Shown here: positions 22,190-31,263 of the stretch, piece by piece
How the letters are laid out: every line of letters starts with the position of its first letter
Position numbering within the stretch: position 1 is the stretch's first letter
Program-made: the position numbers and the translations under genes
Assembly: GCA_035637095.1 (NCBI GenBank)
Contig: DASPXX010000345.1
Location: forward strand, 1,660-65,659
Length of the DNA stretch: 64,000 nucleotides
Direction: 5' to 3'
Source: Thermoanaerobaculia bacterium
Lineage (GTDB): Bacteria > Acidobacteriota > Thermoanaerobaculia > Multivoradales > UBA5704
Notes under the pieces: model-generated
Told to the model about the DNA's origin: nothing
Database searches by the model: none
The model's input: only the letters and a program-made list of their open reading frames with translations

Positions 22190-22585
22190 TCAGGCGGCGG
22201 AGGTCGGCGTGCGGTCGAACTTGCGGTGGAAGGCGCGGTAGAAGGTCTGGGGGTACAGGTAGCCGACCGCCATGGCGACGTCGAAGACAGGGAACCGTTT
22301 TTCGAGCAATCGGAGGGCGGCGTTCAAGCGGAGGGTTTCGATGTATTCCTTGAGGGTGATTCCCAGGACATGCCGGAACCGGCAGGAGATGTTGTTGTCG
22401 CGGATGCGACATCGCCTCTTGATGCTCTGCACGTTGAGATCGGGATCAAAGAGGTTCGCATGGATGTGCTCCAGGACCTCCCGGATCTCGCGCGACAGGT
22501 TGCCGGGCCGGGAGACCTCCGCCAGGAAGCGGTCGAGCTCAGCTTCGATTCCGGAATGATTGAGAGCGATGCTGTTGGTTCTCAT
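22190..22585 (-). CDS. AraC-family HTH transcriptional regulator (short, DNA-binding domain only)
   Basis: ORF 22190..22804 trimmed to MRTNSIALNH... (GAGGAG SD). The HTH region reads ...ISCRFRHVLGITLKEYIETLRLNAALRLL...VGYLYPQTFYRAFHRKF. Confidence 0.7.
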   Translation of the reverse strand: MRTNSIALNHSGIEAELDRFLAEVSRPGNLSREIREVLEHIHANLFDPDLNVQSIKRRCRIRDNNISCRFRHVLGITLKEYIETLRLNAALRLLEKRFPVFDVAMAVGYLYPQTFYRAFHRKFDRTPTSAA

Positions 22586-22646
22586 CGAGCTCCTCGCGTC
22601 ATGAAAAAGCGTTCCCCGGCGGCCGGAGCCGCCGGGGAGGGACTCC

Positions 22647-22844
22647 TCAAGCTGACTCTCCTCCCGCAAACAGATTGCAGGAGTATTGGACACAGTTCGT
22701 CGACTCGTCATTGCCGCCGAGAACCTGCGCCAGAACCGAGTCCACCAGCGCCTCCAGATCCCCCGTCTGGATATCCTGCGCGCCCAGCCGGAATGCGGCT
22801 CCATTCAAACGTACGACCTGCCCAGCACACCAACTCTTTTTCAT
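22647..22844 (-). CDS. Candidate RiPP precursor with double-glycine leader (65 aa)
   Basis: GAGGA SD. Product: MKKSWCAGQVVRLNGAAFRLGAQDIQTGDLEALVDSVLAQVLGG/NDESTNCVQYSCNLFAGGESA. It starts 57 nt downstream of the radical SAM/SPASM gene on the same strand. Confidence 0.55.
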   Translation of the reverse strand: MKKSWCAGQVVRLNGAAFRLGAQDIQTGDLEALVDSVLAQVLGGNDESTNCVQYSCNLFAGGESA

Positions 22845-22901
22845 CGTCAGATCCTCACATCAAAAAACCGCCGGGCCTCCCGGCGGATCATTTCCCGGAG
22901 A

Positions 22902-24404
22902 TCACAGATCGCAGACTTTCTCCCGCAGCGCCACCGGCGCGCCACCGGCCAGGTGCTGCCGGTAGGCCTCGGCGAGGCTGGCCTGGAAACGCGAGGAGAA
23001 TCCATCGCAATAGTTCGAGTTGTACGAGCCGTTGCTGCCCAGGGCCAGCACGGCGCAGCCGCCTCCGCAATGGAGCGCATAGCGGCAGCGGCGGCAGACC
23101 GGATTGCTCGCCACGGTCCGGCTCTGCCAGACCGCGAGCTGCTCCCGGCTCAGCTCCACCTCGCCGTCCGGCAGGACGCGGCCGGTGCGGATCTTGGCAT
23201 CGCCGGTCCGCTCCCAGCAGGAGTAGATGTCACCGAACGGATCGAAGATGTACATGCGGTCGTGGGCGCCGCAGAAGCTCGGCCGCAGGCTCGGGAGGAC
23301 CTCGCCACCGGTGTCGAAGATCCGCCGGGCCCGGGCGCGCAGCCCTTCGTCCGGACGGGAGAGGACCGCGACCTCGGGATGCTCCCCGCGCAGGCGCGTC
23401 AGCTCCCGGTCGAGATCCCAGGTGGAGAACGTCGAGCCGGGGTCGGTCTTGCCGTTCCCGGCGCGCACCGGCGAGGTGTAGGCCGCAAAGCCCGGATGCG
23501 CGGCCCAGCCGCGCGCCGCGAGCTCGCGGGCCACGGCCGGCAGGTCGGCCAGGTTCGTCCGGTCGACGTTGATCCGGAGGCTCACGACCGCGCCCTCTGC
23601 CAGGGCCAGGTCGATCCCCCCGGCGATCCGCTCGTACGAGCCGGAGCCGTCGGCGTAGATCCGCCGGCGGTCGTGCTGCGGCGGCGGTCCGTCGAGGGTG
23701 ATCTGGAGCATGGCGATTCCAACGGGGCCGAGGAGGTCGCGATAGGCGGCGAGCTCGGTCCCGTTGCTCACCGCCCAGACGTCGACCGGTCCCAGGTCGA
23801 AGGCGCGGGCCAGGATGTGCTCCACCACGGGCCGGTTCGCCGCGAGCAGCGGCTCGCCGCCGAAGAACCCGATGTTGCGCCGGTGCCGCGATCCCGGCGC
23901 CACCCCGTGGAGCGCCTCGATCTTCGGCAGTGCCGCAAAGATGCGGTCCACCATCGGAGGCTGCATCGTCCGCAGCAGATGACGCAGGTTGCAGTCGCTC
24001 CGCATGTGATCCTGGTAGCAATACGAGCAGCGCAGGTTGCAGTCGTAGGTCGGCATGAAGATGTAGCTCGGAGGCTGCTGCAAAGCCCGCTCGTGGAGAC
24101 GGGTGGCCAGCCGGCCGAAAAAGGTTTCTTCCTGCTCGCTGCTCAGCTCGGTGAGGTAGCCCTGGGCGCAGAGGTGCTCGATCAGGGAGTCGGACGGATC
24201 GGCGACCGGCTCGGCGGCGTCCGCCTCCTCGCTCCACGCGCCGTAGAGAGGGCTCGCCGCGGTCCTGGCGCCCCGGGACCGCAGGAAGCCGGCCACCCGG
24301 CGAGAAACCTTGTCGTACGCGCCGGTGTATCCGTGGACCAGGAGGACCTCGTCCTCGCTGTCCGGAAGATTGACAAAGATCACGTAACTGCTCATTCGAA
24401 GCAT
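22902..24404 (-). CDS. Radical SAM/SPASM-domain peptide maturase
   Basis: Trimmed to MLRMSSYVIF... (GGGAGG SD). Radical SAM cluster: CNLRCSYC. SPASM motifs: C-x17-C (FCGAHDRMYIFDPFGDIYSC) and CRRCRYALHCGGGC. The N-terminal roughly 100 aa look like a PqqD/RRE-type peptide-binding region (VLLVHGYTGAYDKVS). Confidence 0.8.
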   Translation of the reverse strand: MLRMSSYVIFVNLPDSEDEVLLVHGYTGAYDKVSRRVAGFLRSRGARTAASPLYGAWSEEADAAEPVADPSDSLIEHLCAQGYLTELSSEQEETFFGRLATRLHERALQQPPSYIFMPTYDCNLRCSYCYQDHMRSDCNLRHLLRTMQPPMVDRIFAALPKIEALHGVAPGSRHRRNIGFFGGEPLLAANRPVVEHILARAFDLGPVDVWAVSNGTELAAYRDLLGPVGIAMLQITLDGPPPQHDRRRIYADGSGSYERIAGGIDLALAEGAVVSLRINVDRTNLADLPAVARELAARGWAAHPGFAAYTSPVRAGNGKTDPGSTFSTWDLDRELTRLRGEHPEVAVLSRPDEGLRARARRIFDTGGEVLPSLRPSFCGAHDRMYIFDPFGDIYSCWERTGDAKIRTGRVLPDGEVELSREQLAVWQSRTVASNPVCRRCRYALHCGGGCAVLALGSNGSYNSNYCDGFSSRFQASLAEAYRQHLAGGAPVALREKVCDL

Positions 24405-24580
24405 TGTGACCTCCCCGCTTGGCAACCTGCGCGAAAGGACTTCTGCAAGGGGTGGACCAGGGATGCAAGGAGGTGAAGGAGAGCGAAAAACCTTTCGACT
24501 CGGGTAACGCGCTACTCAACGCGGGTAAGCCCCTACCCCTGCCGGATGGGCGAGCCGTGCCGGAACGCCCCCGGTCTCCC

Positions 24581-24596
24581 TGGCATGCGGGATGCA
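24581..24596 (+). promoter_or_regulatory. Sigma-54-type -24/-12 promoter motif upstream of the ABC-2 operon
   Basis: TGGCATGcgggATGCA has the correct GG-N10-GC spacing. It lies 54 nt upstream of ATG 24650. Confidence 0.45.
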
Positions 24597-24649
24597 GCAA
24601 GCCACGATATACTCCGGCCCCGGAGTACCCTTCCGCGGAAAGACGAGAC

Positions 24650-26251
24650 ATGCTGCGTGCTGTGATTCGAAAGGAATTTCAGTTCCATCTCGCGGGCTTT
24701 CCCCTGCGGGTCGGGACGCTGTTGGCGCTCCTGCTGGCCGCGTCGTCCACGCTGCTCGTCACCCGGGACTACAACCTGCGGCTGGAGGCGTATCGGGACC
24801 GCGTCGCCGCGCATGCGCGCGCGCTTCAGGAGGAGACGGTCTACTCGTACCTGCAGCCGGTCGTGGTCCGCCCGCCGGAGCCGCTCAGCGTGCTGGACCA
24901 GGGCTACGACGCCCAGCTGGGGACCGATGCGACCATCAATCTCTTCGCGGTTCCGGCGGAGGCCACGGGCGGATACCGGGGCAACGAGTTCCTCGTCACC
25001 TCTCCCGCGGCGGACCTCACGGCGATCGTGGCGGTCGTCCTCGGCCTCCTCGCGCTCCTGCTCGCCCACGACGCGGTGGCGGTCGAGCGGGACGGCCAAG
25101 CGCTCTCCGCGCTCCTCGCCTCCGGCCTGCCGCGCCACACCCTGCTCGCCGGCAAGGTCCTGGGCGGTCTGCTGAGCCTGGCGCTGCCGCTCGGCGGGGC
25201 GCTCCTGGTCAGCCTGGCGATCTTCGTCCAGCAGGTCGACGTCGAGCTCTCGGTCCGGCAGTGGTTGCGCGCGGCGGGGCTCGGGGCGGGGTACGTCCTC
25301 TATCTCTCGCTCATGTTCCTTCTCGGCGTGCTCATCTCCCTGTCCTCGCGCAAGCGGTCGCGCGTGCTCGCCCTGGCGGTCGTGATCTGGCTCGCCGCGG
25401 TGGTCGTCCTGCCGGGAGCGGTGCGCACCCTGGTGGCCGATCTCGGGGGTGCGCGCGAGGCCCGGCTGGCCGCGGAGCGCCGCGGCGCCGAGCTCCTCGC
25501 CGAACGGGACCGGCGCCTCGAGGCGGAGCTCCGGCGCGTGCCCCTGCGCGCCGTCTTCAACGGCGACTCGGCCATCTCCTTCGCGAGCGGCGAGAACCGG
25601 GCCGTGCGCTACCGCTACGGATCGGCCGCCTATTACGACGCGCTCAGCGCCTACTACCGCACCGAGGTGGCGCTCGGGATGCGCTATGCTGAGACCGTGT
25701 TCGCCGAGCAGCGGCGCGCCGAGGAGCACCTCAGGGCCGCCGAGAGGCTCGGCCTGATGCTGGGCATGATCTCTCCCGCCGTCCTCCTCGACAACCTGTC
25801 GGAAGAGCTCGCCGGGACCTCGACCGCGGAGTACGACCGCTTCCTCGCGGCCTGCCGGGACTACCGCCTCGCCCTGATCCGCTACTTCGAGGAGCGCAAT
25901 GCGTTCGCGTCCTGGCGCTGGTTCACCGACGATCGTCCGGACCGGCTCCACCCCTGGCCGCTGTTTCTCGGCCTCACGCCCGATGAGGCGCGGCCGGAGG
26001 ACGTCCAGCGGCTCTTCGCACGGCTCGGCGATCCGGAGATCGCGGGCCGGGTGAGCCGCGAGCAGGCCGCCCTGGCGGGCGATCCGGCCCGCCGGCTGCC
26101 GCTGGCGGACATGCCTCGTTTCGTCCCTCCGGGCGCGGGGTTCCTCGAGTGCCTGCGCCGCGGAATCCCCGAGGCGCTCGGGCTCCTGGCCTTCAACCTG
26201 CTGGCCTGGGCCGCGGTCTCGGCGCGCTTCCGGCGATGGTCTCCCCGATGA
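24650..26251 (+). CDS. ABC-2-type permease with long C-terminal extension (DUF3526-like)
   Basis: ORF 24419..26251 trimmed to MLRAVIRKEFQFHLAGFPLRVG. It has multiple TM helices followed by an Arg/Glu-rich helical region and a terminal TM helix. Confidence 0.65.
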   Translation: MLRAVIRKEFQFHLAGFPLRVGTLLALLLAASSTLLVTRDYNLRLEAYRDRVAAHARALQEETVYSYLQPVVVRPPEPLSVLDQGYDAQLGTDATINLFAVPAEATGGYRGNEFLVTSPAADLTAIVAVVLGLLALLLAHDAVAVERDGQALSALLASGLPRHTLLAGKVLGGLLSLALPLGGALLVSLAIFVQQVDVELSVRQWLRAAGLGAGYVLYLSLMFLLGVLISLSSRKRSRVLALAVVIWLAAVVVLPGAVRTLVADLGGAREARLAAERRGAELLAERDRRLEAELRRVPLRAVFNGDSAISFASGENRAVRYRYGSAAYYDALSAYYRTEVALGMRYAETVFAEQRRAEEHLRAAERLGLMLGMISPAVLLDNLSEELAGTSTAEYDRFLAACRDYRLALIRYFEERNAFASWRWFTDDRPDRLHPWPLFLGLTPDEARPEDVQRLFARLGDPEIAGRVSREQAALAGDPARRLPLADMPRFVPPGAGFLECLRRGIPEALGLLAFNLLAWAAVSARFRRWSPR

Positions 26252-27744
26252 GCGGCTCGCCGGCACCGCTCGTCTCGCTCCGGGAGACCCCCGCCGCCGC
26301 GGACCGCGGCTTCCCGGCGCCCGCCGCCGTGGGCAGGCCCCGCCGGGTCGTTGCGACGGTGTTCTGGAACGAGGTGCGGCTGGCGGCGGACAGCATCCGT
26401 CTCTGGGCTCCGGCGGTCCTCCTGGTGGCGTTGATGGTGCTCGCCGCCGTCATCTCCTCCGCGCGGTTCCGGCGGGACGCCGCGGACCAGGCGGGCTCTG
26501 CGAAGGACTATGCCCGGCGCCTGGAAGGAGCCTCGCTCGATGAGCTCTCGGTGCTCCGGTACCCGGCCCTCAAACCTCCCTGGCGTCTCGCCGTGGTCGT
26601 CGAGGGCGGGCAGACCGCGACGCCCGACACCTACGATCAGGTGCTGAGCGCGTTGGAGGAGCCGGAGCTGCGCAGGGCTGCCGGGGAGGATCCGCGCCTG
26701 TCCGGAGCTCCCGCGGTCGATTGGATGCTCGCCATCCGGGTCGTCCTCTCGATCGGCGCCTTCCTCCTCTGCCATGGCGCCATGAGCGGCGAGCGGCGGT
26801 CGGGACGGCTGAAGCTCGTCTTCTCGCTGCCGATCCCGCGCTGGAAGATCCTGGCGGGCAAGTTCCTCGCCGCCTGGTCCTGCCTCGCGGTCCCGTTCCT
26901 CGCCGGCGCCGTGGCCAGCCTTCTCGTCGCCTCCGGCCTCGGCGGCTTCCGCCTCGCGGAGGAGGATCTCGCCCGCGCCGGCCTGGGGGTGCTCCTGGGG
27001 CTCTGGGCGGCGGCGTTCTTCGTGCTCCTCGCCCTGCTCGTCTCCTCGCTGACCCGCGAGCCCTCGACCAGCCTCGGCGTCCTCGCCCTGCTCTGGGTGG
27101 CCGCGGTCATCGTGGTCCCGGCCCTCTCCGTCCTGCTCGCCCGGAGGCTGCAACCGTTCCCGACCCGCGCCGAGGTCAACCAGCGCATGGCCGAGGCCCG
27201 GCAGGAGGCCCGGCGCGAGATCGCCGGGCAGGACGGACGGTGGCGGCCGTCCTCCTGGGCCGCGGCCGACGGGTACGCGTGGGAGAAGATCTCCGCGCGC
27301 GGAGAGAATCGGCGGTCCTTCCTCCAGGAGGAGATCCGCCGCCAGGTCCTCCAGCAGAAGCTGCGGCAGGCGGAGCTGGCCCGCACCCTGGCTTCCGTAT
27401 CCCCGCCGTCGCTCGTCCAGACGATCGCCGAACGGCTGCTCGGCAGCGGCGTCGAGCGGGACCGCGCCTTCCTGACGCAGGCGTGGGTCCTCCGCGCCGC
27501 CATGCGCGAACGGGTGCGGCAGCTCGACGCCGCGGACCCGGAGAGCCCCCACATCCTGTATTTCCATGGCTACATGTCGCAGCGCCCCATCGCGCCCGGA
27601 TCTCTCCCCGGCTTCGCCTTCCGTGAGCGGACTCTGCGCAAGGGCCTGACCTCCACCCGTCCGGCCCTCCTGGCGTTTCTCTTGGAGACGCTTCTCCTCG
27701 CGGCCGCGGCCCTCTTCGCCTTCTCTCGCTATGACGCGGGGTGA
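26248..27744 (+). CDS. Second ABC-2-type permease (DUF3526-like), paralogous architecture
   Basis: ATGA overlap with the upstream gene at 26248; the start could also be 26236. It has the same TM, helical and TM layout. Confidence 0.6.
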   Translation: MSGSPAPLVSLRETPAAADRGFPAPAAVGRPRRVVATVFWNEVRLAADSIRLWAPAVLLVALMVLAAVISSARFRRDAADQAGSAKDYARRLEGASLDELSVLRYPALKPPWRLAVVVEGGQTATPDTYDQVLSALEEPELRRAAGEDPRLSGAPAVDWMLAIRVVLSIGAFLLCHGAMSGERRSGRLKLVFSLPIPRWKILAGKFLAAWSCLAVPFLAGAVASLLVASGLGGFRLAEEDLARAGLGVLLGLWAAAFFVLLALLVSSLTREPSTSLGVLALLWVAAVIVVPALSVLLARRLQPFPTRAEVNQRMAEARQEARREIAGQDGRWRPSSWAAADGYAWEKISARGENRRSFLQEEIRRQVLQQKLRQAELARTLASVSPPSLVQTIAERLLGSGVERDRAFLTQAWVLRAAMRERVRQLDAADPESPHILYFHGYMSQRPIAPGSLPGFAFRERTLRKGLTSTRPALLAFLLETLLLAAAALFAFSRYDAG

Positions 27745-27747
27745 ACC

Positions 27748-28470
27748 ATGATCGAAGCCGTCGACCTCAGCAAGCGCTATCCCAACGGCCAGCTGGCCCT
27801 CGATGCCTTGAACCTCCGGATCGCGCCGGGCGAGATCTACTGCCTGCTCGGGCCGAAGGGCGCGGGGAAGACCACGGTGATCAATCTCTTCCTCGGCCTC
27901 ACCATGCCCACGGCCGGCCGGGCGCTCCTCGGCGGCTGCGACGTGGCGCAGGACCCCCAGGAAGCCCGGCGGCGGGTGGCCTTCCTGTCCGACGGCATGA
28001 CGTTCTACGAGCGGCTCACCGTGCGGCAGAACCTCGAATTCTTCGCCCGGCTGGCCGGACGCTCGCGGGCGGTTTCCGGCGACTGCGAGATGCTGCTGCG
28101 GGAGGTGGGCCTGCCGGAGGCCTCGTTCGATCAGAAGCTGGCCGGGATCGGCACCGGCGCGCTCCGCAAGCTCGGCCTCGCCGTGGCCATGGCCAGGAAC
28201 GCGCCGGCGATCCTGCTCGACGAGCCGCTCTCCGGCGTCGATCCCAAGGCCGCCGCCGAGCTGGTCGAGATCCTGGAACGGCTGCGCGACCAGGGCAAGG
28301 CGCTGCTGATCACCCTCCAGGAGCTGGTCTGGGTCCGCCAGCTCGCCGACCGCGCCGGCTTCCTTCAGGAAGGCCGGCAGGTGCTGGCGCGCACCCGCGA
28401 GGAGCTGCGCTATGAGGACGTCGAACGCCTGTACCTCGACTACACCCGGGGGGGATTGATGGCACGGTGA
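27748..28470 (+). CDS. ABC transporter ATP-binding protein with degenerate catalytic motifs
   Basis: Walker A (GPKGAGKT) and Walker B (ILLDEP) are intact. Other motifs are degenerate: Q-loop Q->D (FLSDG), signature IGTGA instead of LSGGQ, H-loop H->Q (ITLQEL). Confidence 0.75.
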   Translation: MIEAVDLSKRYPNGQLALDALNLRIAPGEIYCLLGPKGAGKTTVINLFLGLTMPTAGRALLGGCDVAQDPQEARRRVAFLSDGMTFYERLTVRQNLEFFARLAGRSRAVSGDCEMLLREVGLPEASFDQKLAGIGTGALRKLGLAVAMARNAPAILLDEPLSGVDPKAAAELVEILERLRDQGKALLITLQELVWVRQLADRAGFLQEGRQVLARTREELRYEDVERLYLDYTRGGLMAR

Positions 28471-28474
28471 GGGC

Positions 28475-29859
<1,385 letters not shown>

Positions 29860-29875
<16 letters not shown>

Positions 29876-31263
29876 GCGGCATTCTCCACGAGCGGCAAGC
29901 GGACCGAAGCCGTGGTACCCCGTCCCTCTTCGCTCTCGAGCTCGATCTCGCCCTGATGCCTCTCGACGATGCCGTGGCAGATGGCGAGCCCGAGACCCGT
30001 GCCATCCCGTTTGGTCGTATAGAAGGGATCGAAGACGCGGCGGACCTGGTCCGGCGGAATGCCCGGCCCGGTGTCGGCGATGCGGACCTGCGCCCAGCGC
30101 GCCCCCGGGCTGCTCGGGGGAGACCAGGAAGCCGCCGCCACCGTGATCCGGCCGCCGCCGGGCATGGACTGCAGGGAATTGAGCAGCAGGTTGAGAAAGA
30201 CCTGCTTGAGCTGGCCCGAATCGCCGCGGACGCGCAGCGGCTCGCTGCCCAGGCGGGCTTCGAGAGCGACCCCCTGCTCGGTTGCGCGGGCCTGCACCAG
30301 ATGGACCGACGCGGAGAGCGGATCGATGAGATCGAATTCCGTCAGATGGAGCTCGCCGGGCCGGCCGAGGCTGAGCAGGCCGCCGACGGTGCCGTTGATG
30401 CGGTCGACCTCGCTCAGCAGCTCGGCCACGAGCTCGTGGTGCGGCTCGTCGGGCGCGAACCCATGCAGGAGGTACTGCATGGTCGAGCGGATCGCCGTCA
30501 GGGGGTTGCGGATCTCGTGGGCCACGCCGGCCGCGAGCTGTCCGACCGCGGCGAGGCGCTCGGCGCGGTGGAGGCGGTCGAGGCGGTCCTGCTGCGCGCG
30601 GTAGAGGGCCGCGTTCTCGAACGCGAGGCTCACCTGCGCGGACAGCAGCTGCAACAGCTCGAGGTCTCTCCCGACCAGCCATCGCCCGGGCCGGTCGCAC
30701 CCCAGGAGGAGGATCCCGGTCAGCCGGTTGATGGAGACCATGGGAACGGCGACGTCGATCCCCAGGCGGCGGAACAGGTCCTGCTCGACCGGGTCGAGGT
30801 AGTCGAAGACCCCCGGCTGGCGATCGCGGACGAAGGAGATCTCGTTGACTTTGAGCCAGCGGGCGAGCTTGCCGCGACCGAGGATCTCGACCCCGGAGAG
30901 CGCGGCGTCCTCGATTCCGAAGGAGAAGCCTGGCCGGAAGACGGCCTCGCCGAGGTCGGGCTCGAGGAAGACGATCCGGTCCGGATCGAACATCTCGCGC
31001 AGGCGCGCGGCCACGCTGGACTCCAGGGCCTCGCGGTCGACGATCAGCGCCAGCGCGCGCCCGAGCTCCTGGAAGGCCCGGCGGTCGACCCCCCGGCGGC
31101 GCCATCGTCCAAAGAGTCCTTCGAAGAGTGGCCACCGTGACTTCAAAGGCTGATCATACCTCCGGCGGCGATCGGGGCCGCCGCGCGTCACCGCTCTCCT
31201 CGTCTCTGCACGGAGGAGGGCCCTTCCCTGGACAACATCCGTATATACGGACCGTGGCTCCAT
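29860..31263 (-). CDS. Sensor histidine kinase (GAF-like input, HisKA, HATPase_c); start uncertain
   Basis: H-box GVAHEIRNPL. N, G1 and G2 boxes: LLLNSLQSM, DTGPGI, GTGLGLAI. It overlaps the response-regulator start by 16 nt. Confidence 0.8.

What the first reader, a model, noticed from the sequence alone, without database searches (positions are those of the whole stretch)
22190..24404. Radical SAM/SPASM maturase, a Cys-containing GG-leader peptide and an AraC regulator: a second, unclassified RiPP locus
Seen in sequence: the maturase has CNLRCSYC, a full SPASM motif (Cx2Cx5Cx3C) and an RRE-like N-terminus. Fifty-seven nt downstream on the same strand is a 65-aa ORF with a good SD. Its sequence ...DLEALVDSVLAQVLGG/NDESTNCVQYSCNLFAGGESA has a double-glycine-type leader end and a 21-aa tail with two Cys. 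A short AraC-type regulator follows. Established knowledge: SPASM enzymes install thioether (sactipeptide or ranthipeptide) or C-C crosslinks on such tails. GG leaders are normally cleaved by C39-domain ABC transporters. No C39 domain is present in the window. Inference: an uncharacterised thioether-type RiPP whose export or processing partner is elsewhere, or is the neighbouring atypical ABC-2 system.
Basis: partly seen in the sequence, partly recalled or inferred. Interest (0 to 1): 0.6.

Follow-up and report, generated by a model that had tools for sequence, protein, structure and literature searches.

The report
Sigma-54-controlled radical SAM peptide cluster
This is a real gene cluster for a small enzyme-crosslinked peptide in an uncultured soil acidobacterium; it belongs to a large unstudied family and always travels with its own unusual transporter and on-switch, but it is a new variant of a well-known kind of system, not a new kind.

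Summary
On the minus strand lie a 500-aa radical SAM/SPASM enzyme (22902-24404), a 65-aa precursor 57 nt downstream (22647-22844), and a 131-aa stand-alone AraC HTH protein (22190-22585). The enzyme has an RRE-type N-terminal domain.

The precursor is conserved beside orthologous maturases in every related locus where I looked for one and could find it. Both Cys are invariant, in the motif C-x-[QE]-[FY]-x-C-[NS]-x-[YF]-A.

The maturase passes only the generic SPASM model. It falls far below every curated NCBIfam subfamily; the nearest are CefB, TIGR04463 and PapB, and the closest structure is CteB. It is not a sulfatase maturase. It belongs to a large unnamed family (611 clusters at 50% identity).

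The locus is larger than reported. The divergent DUF3526 ABC-2 transporter, with a degenerate ATPase, occurs in exactly the genomes that carry the orthologous maturase, always next to it. The shared intergenic region holds two opposed sigma-54 promoters flanking two GGGTAA-N5-YTACCC palindromes. An NtrC-type activator and a GAF kinase are adjacent. A rearranged locus keeps all parts and motifs.

Thioether crosslinking is the best inference but is untested. No C39 peptidase lies in any locus, and GG is not strictly conserved.

The parts
22902..24404 (-). Radical SAM/SPASM peptide maturase, 500 aa: N-terminal RRE-like domain (about residues 1-108), CX3CX2C radical SAM core, and a seven-Cys SPASM domain for two auxiliary clusters
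   Evidence: TIGR04085 SPASM scores 49.8 bits (cut-off 27). Every equivalog model is below its cut-off.
22647..22844 (-). Precursor peptide, 65 aa. Leader 1-44 (RLNGAAFRL...LEALVDSVLAQVLGG). Core NDESTN-CVQYSCNLFA-GGESA, with invariant Cys51 and Cys56
22868..22886 (-). GC-rich hairpin followed by T6, between the maturase stop and the precursor start. It looks like a terminator or attenuator. Its role is unknown and it is not conserved in most orthologues
22613..22638 (-). 11-bp GC hairpin followed by a T5 tract just after the precursor stop: a likely operon terminator or attenuator ahead of the AraC gene
22190..22585 (-). Stand-alone AraC/XylS HTH protein of SoxS/MarA size, 131 aa. It is an accessory gene, adjacent to the precursor in only some orthologous loci
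24444..24459 (-). Sigma-54-type -24/-12 promoter (TGGTCCACCCCTTGCA on the minus strand), about 40 nt upstream of the maturase ATG
   Evidence: Conserved in 12 of 13 orthologous intergenic regions.
24502..24538 (.). Two tandem palindromes, GGGTAACGCGCTACTC and GGGTAAGCCCCTACCC, between the two promoters: likely binding sites (UAS) for the NtrC-type activator
   Evidence: The same palindrome recurs before each transcription unit in L126 and before the precursor in L107.
24581..24596 (+). Sigma-54-type -24/-12 promoter (TGGCATGCGGGATGCA) for the ABC-2 operon
24650..26251 (+). ABC-2 permease 1 with a DUF3526 insert of about 220 aa between TM5 and TM6
26236..27744 (+). ABC-2 permease 2 with a DUF3526 insert
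27748..28470 (+). ABC ATPase with intact Walker A and B motifs. The Q-loop, signature and H-loop motifs are degenerate, and this is conserved in all 12 orthologues
28475..29875 (-). NtrC-type sigma-54 enhancer-binding response regulator (REC-AAA+-HTH_8)
29860..31191 (-). GAF-HisKA-HATPase histidine kinase, partner of the activator. I did not test it for membrane segments; by eye it looks soluble

Best explanation
This is a self-contained cluster of about 9 kb (22190-31191) for a radical-SAM-crosslinked ribosomal peptide.

Shown:
- The maturase has an RRE domain, a radical SAM core and a SPASM domain.
- The precursor has a conserved leader and a short core with two invariant Cys.
- A DUF3526 ABC-2 transporter, an NtrC-type sigma-54 activator and a GAF histidine kinase are always linked to them.
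- Two opposed -24/-12 promoters flank two conserved palindromes in the shared intergenic region.

Inferred mechanism:
1. The kinase senses a signal and phosphorylates the activator.
2. The activator binds the GGGTAA-N5-YTACCC palindromes and switches on both operons through sigma-54.
3. The RRE domain of the maturase grips the leader, probably at the conserved RLNGAAFRL segment.
4. The enzyme cleaves SAM and abstracts a hydrogen from an acceptor residue. It then joins the sulfur of Cys51 and Cys56 to nearby carbons, giving two small non-hairpin thioether rings (expected -4 Da).
5. The most likely acceptors are the aromatic residues three positions after each Cys (Tyr54, Phe59). C-x-x-[FY] is the unit that repeats four times in paralogous precursors. 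Gln53 is an alternative acceptor.
6. The leader is removed near the GG by a protease that is not encoded in the cluster.
7. The ABC-2 system exports the product or protects the producer, in the manner of LanFEG.

The biological role of the peptide (antibiotic or signal) is unknown.
For: Maturase architecture.

Chemistry:
- The nearest curated families all act on Cys-rich peptides: CefB 106 bits, TIGR04463 96, PapB 94.
- The nearest structure by sequence and by fold is the thioether synthase CteB.
- The two Cys are the only invariant residues in 22 precursors.
- C-x-x-F/Y repeats four times in the precursors of L017, L021 and L039, and C-L-I-Y occurs in the Polyangium precursor.

Transporter linkage:
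- All three transporter genes lie next to the maturase in 12 of the 18 loci whose maturase is 57% identical or more, and L112 has both permeases before its contig ends. The five without them are L110, L114, L115, L027 and L039; at least L114 and L039 carry the C-x-x-F repeat precursor type.
- The permease is found in exactly 12 of 61 related genomes. It is single-copy there and always next to the maturase.
- It is absent from the other 49 genomes. These include G002, which carries only paralogous maturases, and G031, which has only a weak maturase match.
- In a phylum sample of 151 genomes only 26-31% identical paralogues exist.
- In L126 the gene order is rearranged: the precursor is divergent and the transporter lies downstream on the same strand behind a MacB-like permease. 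Maturase, C-T-Q-F-T-C-S-P-Y precursor, two DUF3526 permeases, ATPase, NtrC and GAF kinase all stay together.

Regulation:
- Both promoters and both palindromes are conserved in the intergenic alignment.
- In L126 each of the three units has its own GG-N10-GC promoter, and a GGGTAA-N4-TTACYC palindrome lies in each of the two intergenic regions, one of them shared by the divergent precursor and maturase.
- In L107 the precursor has its own palindrome and TGGCAAGGCGCTTGCA promoter after a terminator.
Against: - No chemistry was measured. The maturase is only about 20% identical to CteB and far below every subfamily cut-off, so the type of crosslink is extrapolated.
- Neither candidate acceptor is invariant. 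P0012 has Asn in place of the first aromatic residue. L024 has Leu in place of Gln/Glu.
- The catalytic-site proximity residues mapped through the CteB alignment are Y/F, F, V, T, W, E, against F, F, T, S, H, Q in CteB. They match at only two of six positions (PMC10288494).
- No leader peptidase is conserved in the cluster.
- The transporter ATPase has degenerate Q-loop, signature and H-loop motifs, so whether it transports at all is open.
- A terminator-like hairpin sits between the maturase and the precursor in the window, and I cannot explain it.
- Promoters and binding sites are motif matches only.
Confidence: 0.6

Rival explanations
1. The cluster is the same, but the chemistry is different. 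The maturase installs a carbon-carbon (cyclophane) or ether crosslink on the conserved Tyr/Phe residues, or epimerises residues. The two Cys only form a disulfide or bind a metal.
For: - SPASM enzymes with RRE domains also make cyclophanes, ethers, cyclopropylglycine and epimers. TigE, SuiB and ChlB are among the fold matches.
- DynA (74 bits), YhhB (47 bits) and FxsB (42 bits) models give weak hits.
- Aromatic residues are nearly as conserved as the Cys.
- The active-site proximity residues differ from CteB at four of six positions (PMC10288494).
Against: - The three best family models all have Cys-rich substrates.
- Only the two Cys are invariant.
- A three-residue cyclophane motif read from the aromatic residues would put Gly at the acceptor position in paralogous cores (F-T-G in L021, F-G-C in L017). 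Gly has no beta carbon.
- Paralogous cores in L022 have Cys but no aromatic residue after the first Trp.
Confidence: 0.22
2. The rSAM-precursor pair is a minimal two-gene RiPP unit. The ABC-2/NtrC/kinase genes are only neighbours by common descent, with a function of their own such as a stress-induced efflux system. Export and leader cleavage are done elsewhere, for example by one of the C39 transporters on other contigs.
For: - C39-domain proteins exist elsewhere in the genome.
- Most orthologous precursors do have GG.
- Paralogous maturase subgroups lack the ABC-2 system altogether.
- Most loci come from one bacterial class, so shared ancestry can mimic linkage.
- The ATPase looks catalytically impaired.
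Against: - Presence and absence match perfectly across 61 genomes, although the distribution is patchy, at 12 of 61.
- Linkage survives a rearrangement of order and orientation in L126.
- The same palindrome and the same promoter type precede the maturase, the precursor and the transporter units.
- GG is replaced in three relatives.
Confidence: 0.12
3. The small ORF is not the substrate. The maturase acts on a protein or another peptide encoded elsewhere, as QhpD or the sulfatase maturases do.
For: - There is no direct evidence of modification.
- The QhpD model (61 bits) and a QhpR-like AraC model (30 bits) give weak hits.
Against: - The enzyme has an RRE domain.
- The ORF has a leader/core layout with a conserved leader and a variable spacer.
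- It follows the maturase through 16 or more loci and through one rearrangement.
- The anSME and QhpD scores are far below their cut-offs.
Confidence: 0.04

Closest known systems
CteB / SCIFF and PapB ranthipeptide systems (thermocellin, freyrasin)
   Same: - RRE, radical SAM core and full SPASM architecture.
- CteB is the best match by sequence (E 9e-18) and by fold (E 5e-17, about 500 aligned columns).
- The PapB model is among the top three hits.
- The precursor has a short Cys-containing core after a leader.
- The likely small sequential rings resemble PapB's C-x3-D rings (PapB chemistry from my own knowledge).
   Different: - About 20% identity to CteB.
- PapB 94 bits against a cut-off of 340; SCIFF 50 bits against 425.
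- The core motif is C-x-[QE]-[FY]-x-C-x-x-[YF], not C-x3-D or the six-Cys SCIFF pattern.
- The maturase gene precedes the precursor.
- It comes with a dedicated DUF3526 ABC-2 transporter and sigma-54/NtrC control.
CefB 'Cys-every-fifth' maturase (NF038107) and the TIGR04463 'C-rich' maturase family
   Same: - These are the top two NCBIfam hits for the window enzyme and for distant family members.
- The two Cys of the core are five residues apart (C51, C56).
   Different: - Scores of 106 and 96 bits against cut-offs of 600 and 525.
- Only two Cys in the core, not a long periodic array.
- No peptide model matches.
- As far as I know neither family has been characterised chemically, and I found no paper on them.
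Sactipeptides (subtilosin A/AlbA, SkfB)
   Same: - Cys-to-Phe/Tyr-type pairs are a plausible acceptor logic. In subtilosin, Cys is joined to the alpha carbon of Phe (my own knowledge).
- SkfB is a fold match.
   Different: - There is no hairpin layout with Cys in one half of the core and acceptors in the other.
- The cores are very short, with acceptors predicted at i+3.
- Sequence similarity is low.
LanFEG-type ABC-2 immunity transporters of lantibiotic clusters
   Same: - One ATPase plus two different ABC-2 permeases encoded next to a RiPP operon.
- The ATPase hits the lantibiotic-protection model TIGR03740 at 106 bits.
   Different: - Below the cut-off of 310.
- The permeases are twice as long, with a DUF3526 insert of about 220 aa.
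- The ATPase has degenerate Q-loop, signature and H-loop motifs.

Membership tests
Radical SAM/SPASM peptide maturases (SPASM domain, TIGR04085) | CX3CX2C radical SAM cluster motif | tested here: met
   CNLRCSYC is invariant in 16 and in 32 homologues. PF04055 scores 39 bits against a cut-off of 29.5.
Radical SAM/SPASM peptide maturases (SPASM domain, TIGR04085) | Seven-Cys SPASM motif and an HMM score above the cut-off | tested here: met
   C-x12-G-x4-C, C-x2-C-x5-C-x3-C and a downstream C are all invariant. TIGR04085 scores 49.8 bits against a cut-off of 27.
Radical SAM/SPASM peptide maturases (SPASM domain, TIGR04085) | N-terminal RiPP recognition element (PqqD-like winged helix) | tested here: met
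   The AF2 model shows three strands and three helices in residues 8-108. The full-length Foldseek alignment to the RRE-containing CteB and TigE agrees. No Pfam PqqD hit at E<=0.01.
PapB-family ranthipeptide maturase (NF047865) | HMM score at or above 340 bits | tested here: not met
   93.8 bits. Relatives score 93-124 bits.
SCIFF maturase (TIGR03974) | HMM score at or above 425 bits and a six-Cys SCIFF precursor | tested here: not met
   50.4 bits. The precursor has two core Cys.
CefB Cys-every-fifth maturase (NF038107) | HMM score at or above 600 bits | tested here: not met
   106.5 bits.
Ranthipeptide / sactipeptide (by chemistry) | Thioether from Cys sulfur to a beta/gamma carbon (ranthi-) or alpha carbon (sacti-) of an acceptor residue | not testable with these tools
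   Needs mass spectrometry and NMR or desulfurisation of the modified peptide.
Anaerobic sulfatase maturase (TIGR03942), the non-RiPP alternative | HMM score at or above 349 bits, no RRE, a sulfatase partner | tested here: not met
   43 bits. An RRE is present. The neighbour is a leader-core peptide.
Double-glycine leader / C39 peptidase-ABC exporter (PCAT) systems | Invariant GG (or GA/GS) at the leader end and a C39-domain transporter in the cluster | tested here: not met
   GG is replaced by LGK, LG-T and IGS in three relatives and is absent in paralogous subgroups. There is no C39 on the window contig, nor among the Pfam-annotated genes of the three loci read with gene calls. C39 genes exist on other contigs.
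LanFEG-like ABC-2 protection transporter (TIGR03740 ATPase) | HMM score at or above 310 bits, two six-TM ABC-2 permeases of about 250 aa | tested here: not met
   105.7 bits. The permeases are 502-533 aa with a DUF3526 insert.
Sigma-54 / NtrC-type regulon | GG-N10-GC promoter, upstream palindromic sites, adjacent REC-AAA+(Sigma54_activat)-HTH_8 activator | tested here: met
   The motifs are conserved in 12 of 13 orthologous intergenic regions and recur in rearranged loci. Binding and transcription were not tested.

The most novel reading that the evidence does not exclude
The family makes a thioether topology that has not been described: very small sequential rings joining each Cys to the aromatic residue three positions downstream (a C-x-x-Phe/Tyr unit, used two to four times). 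The peptide is handled by a dedicated class of ABC-2 transporter with a periplasmic DUF3526 domain and a constitutively degenerate ATPase. The whole unit is a sigma-54 regulon driven by its own NtrC/GAF-kinase pair. This would be a new RiPP subclass typical of soil Acidobacteriota.
Probability: 0.3. Interest if true: 0.65.

Novelty: new variant of a known kind. Interest (0 to 1): 0.52.

Why it matters
Radical SAM/SPASM peptides are a productive source of new crosslink chemistry and of narrow-spectrum antibiotics, and Acidobacteriota are abundant in soil but almost untouched as producers.

- The work defines a large unnamed maturase family: 611 clusters at 50% identity with E<=1e-30, and 1529 clusters at 90% identity. 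Public names are only 'radical SAM protein' or 'uncharacterized protein'.
- It gives the family's precursor motif.
- It gives a complete, portable parts list of maturase, precursor, transporter, activator and kinase, plus the likely promoter and operator sequences.
- That makes the system directly testable by co-expression.
- It offers a rare case in which a RiPP cluster's regulation can be read from sequence.
- It gives a functional context to DUF3526 ABC-2 permeases and their odd ATPase.

Tried and rejected
- NCBIfam scan of nine precursor variants at E<=10 found no peptide family.
- Pfam gave nothing for the precursor and no PqqD hit for the RRE. The RRE was established from the predicted structure instead.
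- All-against-all clustering of raw ORFs from the loci was swamped by spurious high-GC antisense ORFs. I replaced it with tblastn of the window's real proteins and a GC3-based gene call.
- Literature searches for DUF3526, CefB/OhkG/FlmE, Thermoanaerobaculia with ranthipeptide, and sigma-54 with RiPP returned nothing on this family.
- I tried catalytic-site proximity profiling (Precord et al. 2023, PMC10288494). I could map the six residues through the CteB alignment. The reference table is in a supplement that is not held, so it gave no call between sacti- and ranthi-type chemistry.
- M16 peptidases and the ABC exporter of the neighbouring lanthipeptide cluster as processing partners: rejected. 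The M16 genes have no counterpart beside any orthologous locus, and exporter-like genes appear beside only three.
- A sigma-54 promoter for the precursor inside the 3' end of the maturase gene: only a poor match at 22951, so it was not adopted.
Full report
**1. What is in the sequence**

All three genes of the finding lie on the minus strand.

- The maturase ORF runs from 24425 to 22902. The functional start is ATG 24404. GGGGAGG lies 5 nt upstream, every orthologue begins MLR(T/M)SSY, and the public gene call is the same 500-aa protein.
- It carries CNLRCSYC and the complete SPASM cysteine pattern: SFC-x12-G-x4-C, C-x2-C-x5-C-x3-C, and a further Cys. All of these are invariant in alignments of 16 and 32 homologues.
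- Exactly 57 nt downstream, behind a GAGGA Shine-Dalgarno sequence, is the 65-aa ORF MKKSWCAGQVVRLNGAAFRLGAQDIQTGDLEALVDSVLAQVLGG-NDESTNCVQYSCNLFAGGESA.
- It is followed by an 11-bp GC hairpin with a T tract, and then by a 131-aa protein that is only an AraC-type HTH domain (22190-22585).

**2. The maturase**

- Against NCBIfam it passes only the generic SPASM domain model (49.8 bits, cut-off 27).
- The best subfamily models are CefB (106 bits, cut-off 600), TIGR04463 (96 bits, cut-off 525) and PapB (94 bits, cut-off 340).
- The anaerobic sulfatase maturase model scores 43 bits against a cut-off of 349.
- The closest solved structure by sequence is the thioether synthase CteB (E 9e-18).
- An AlphaFold2 model built on 32 sequences is confident (pLDDT 87.7). 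It shows three strands followed by three helices at the N-terminus, which is the RRE fold.
- Foldseek puts CteB first, with about 500 aligned columns. TigE, anSME, SuiB, ChlB and SkfB follow.
- The enzyme belongs to a large family. There are 611 representatives at 50% identity with E<=1e-30, and most of the 150 listed align end to end. There are 1529 clusters at 90% identity, named only 'radical SAM protein', 'SPASM domain-containing protein' or 'uncharacterized protein'.
- Ten distant members also fail every equivalog cut-off.

The family is uncurated, and I found no paper on it.

**3. The precursor is real and conserved**

- Orthologous maturases (50-83% identity) occur in 13 of 60 related genomes of the class Thermoanaerobaculia (the organism comes from the record titles).
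- A homologous small ORF lies directly downstream of the maturase in 11 other loci with the same core type. In the rearranged L126 it lies upstream instead.
- Twelve further relatives come from metagenomes.
- In the alignment of 22 sequences the only invariant residues are the two Cys.
- The core motif is C-[VTAS]-[QE]-[FY]-x-C-[NS]-x-[YF]-A, often followed by a proline run. The leader RLNGAAFR(L/I)...L(E/D)xL(V/L)(D/E)xxLSxV(L/F)GG is well conserved. The four to eight residues between GG and the first Cys vary freely, as expected at a leader-core junction.
- GG is not invariant. It reads LGK in L011, LG-T in P0011 and IGS in L024.
- Paralogous maturase subgroups (50-57% identity) have precursors with a related leader (SLNxELFSL...ELDxRLEL), no GG, and different cores. 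L017, L021 and L039 have four C-x-x-F/Y units. L022 has three tandem genes ending WSCCVDGGGTCPNLQSC.
- More distant loci show further variants. *Ktedonosporobacter rubrisoli* has four tandem genes ending LWDCGCDSDC. A Polyangium locus has DWKFCLIYFG.
- No NCBIfam peptide model matches any of them.

**4. The locus is bigger than the finding**

- I ran tblastn of the window's neighbouring proteins against all loci. In 12 of the 18 loci whose maturase is 57% identical or more, the maturase is linked to two DUF3526 ABC-2 permeases and an ATPase. L112 has both permeases before its contig ends. In L113 the transporter lies about 3 kb from the maturase.
- The five loci without the transporter are L110, L114, L115, L027 and L039. 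L114 and L039 carry the C-x-x-F repeat precursor type.
- An NtrC-type activator and a GAF histidine kinase follow convergently wherever the contig reaches that far.
- The permease is present in exactly 12 of 61 genomes. It is single-copy and always beside the maturase.
- It is absent from the other 49. These include G002, which carries only the paralogous maturase types, and G031, which has only a weak maturase match.
- A phylum-wide sample of 151 genomes contains only 26-31% identical paralogues, in two other families.
- In L126 (maturase 62% identical, from a 12-Mb genome) the layout is rearranged. The precursor (...DPCTQFTCSPYG) is divergent and upstream. The transporter lies downstream on the same strand behind a MacB-like permease. 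All components remain together.

This argues for functional coupling and against mere inherited synteny.

**5. Regulation**

- The alignment of 13 maturase/transporter intergenic regions shows four conserved blocks:
  - a -24/-12 element reading towards the maturase (window 24444-24459, TGGTCCACCCCTTGCA on the minus strand, about 40 nt before the ATG);
  - two tandem palindromes GGGTAA-N5-YTACCC (24502-24517 and 24523-24538);
  - a -24/-12 element reading towards the transporter (24581-24596).
- In L126 the precursor, the maturase and the transporter unit each have their own GG-N10-GC element. A GGGTAA-N4-TTACYC palindrome lies in each of the two intergenic regions, and the divergent precursor and maturase share one.
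- In L107 the 265-nt spacer between maturase and precursor holds a terminator, the palindrome, and a near-consensus TGGCAAGGCGCTTGCA.
- With the adjacent REC-AAA+-HTH_8 activator, the simplest reading is a sigma-54 regulon. No sigma-70-like promoter was found in the region.

**6. Transporter**

- Both permeases have TM1, a loop, TM2-5, a hydrophilic insert of about 220 aa that includes DUF3526, and a last TM. From the usual ABC-2 topology the insert should be periplasmic; this is an inference.
- The ATPase keeps Walker A and B. It lacks the Q-loop Gln, has GPGxxRK in place of LSGGQ, and has Q in place of the H-loop His. This holds in all 12 orthologues, except that L116 keeps the His.
They are a conserved trait of the system.
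- Whether the system exports the peptide, protects the producer, or does something else is open.

**7. Chemistry: inference, not shown**

Evidence for thioethers:
- The nearest families and the nearest structure act on Cys.
- The Cys are the only invariant core residues.
- In the paralogues the number of Cys scales with the number of C-x-x-F units.

I therefore favour two small sequential rings, Cys51 to Tyr54 and Cys56 to Phe59. Gln53 is an alternative acceptor, by analogy with N-x-x-C and C-x3-D systems (that chemistry is from my own knowledge).

Evidence against certainty:
- P0012 has Asn for the first aromatic residue, and L024 has Leu for Gln/Glu.
- The six active-site proximity residues defined by Precord et al. 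(PMC10288494) match CteB at only two positions.

I put thioether at roughly 0.6, another crosslink at roughly 0.2, and leave the rest open.

**8. Leader removal and the AraC gene**

- No C39 domain and no other peptidase is conserved in the loci. C39 proteins exist on other contigs of the MAG.
- The genes beyond the precursor differ from locus to locus:
  - AraC in the window, G026 and one G032 locus, and 6 kb away in G019;
  - an RND pump with a membrane fusion protein in G019 and G026;
  - an ABC exporter in G004;
  - a lanthipeptide-like gene set in L026;
  - a thiopeptide cluster in L127;
  - MbtH plus a megasynthase in G014.
- The AraC protein is thus an accessory gene. In the window it lies behind a terminator-like hairpin.
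- The cluster tends to sit in islands of secondary-metabolite genes, as it does here next to the class III lanthipeptide cluster noted earlier.

**9. Unexplained**

A perfect 8-bp GC hairpin with a T6 tract lies between the maturase stop and the precursor start in the window (22868-22886). It would be expected to lower precursor transcription, and most orthologues have only a 28-49-nt spacer without it.

**10. Verdict**

This is a genuine, complete and well-delimited RiPP cluster of an uncharacterised radical SAM/SPASM family. It is a new variant of a known kind, with a new precursor motif, a dedicated atypical ABC-2 transporter, and sigma-54/NtrC control that can be read from the sequence. 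Interest is moderate. The chemistry is unproven but directly testable.

Noticed in passing
window 27748-28470 and orthologues (L105-L116, L025-L028): The ABC ATPase has degenerate motifs: no Q-loop Gln, GPGxxRK instead of LSGGQ, and Q instead of the H-loop His. These are conserved in all 12 orthologous clusters, except that L116 keeps the His. They are a family trait, not decay in this genome.
   Followed up: partly
G000 contig C51 (L002:908-2814): This looks like a third radical SAM RiPP locus in the same genome. A short ORF ending ...GDGVVAIRICECCVLIQD lies directly upstream of a 490-aa radical SAM/SPASM protein that is 34% identical to the window maturase.
   Followed up: partly
L120:10237-11048, L107:7057-7848, L025:7844-8470: In several orthologous loci the gene after the precursor encodes a secreted protein. 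Its C-terminus in L120 (CSCSTDSDWCNNASHCVSGGCTLVRDECGTWWIY) resembles fulvocin-C-type bacteriocins. That resemblance is from memory and was not tested.
   Followed up: no
L127:11771-21500, L026:7835-12602, L111:2765-8615: The rSAM cluster repeatedly borders other secondary-metabolite clusters: a thiopeptide cluster (YcaO, ThcOx, Lant_dehydr_C, Thiopep_pre), a lanthipeptide-like set, and MbtH plus a PKS/NRPS. In the window it borders a class III lanthipeptide cluster. This suggests biosynthetic islands.
   Followed up: no
window 22868-22886 (-): A terminator-like hairpin (CCGCCGGG-AGG-CCCGGCGG followed by T6) sits between the maturase stop and the precursor start. It is absent from most orthologues and I cannot explain it.
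   Followed up: partly
G072, G090, G106 (same phylum, another family): Some acidobacterial genomes carry 6-9 copies of distant (26-29% identical) DUF3526-type ABC-2 permeases. Their genomic context was not examined.
   Followed up: no
L120 (G003:C3) and L028: The maturase reading frame is split in two in these two assemblies. In L120 the NtrC gene and the second permease are also fragmented. These are probably indel errors of the assemblies rather than pseudogenes.
   Followed up: no
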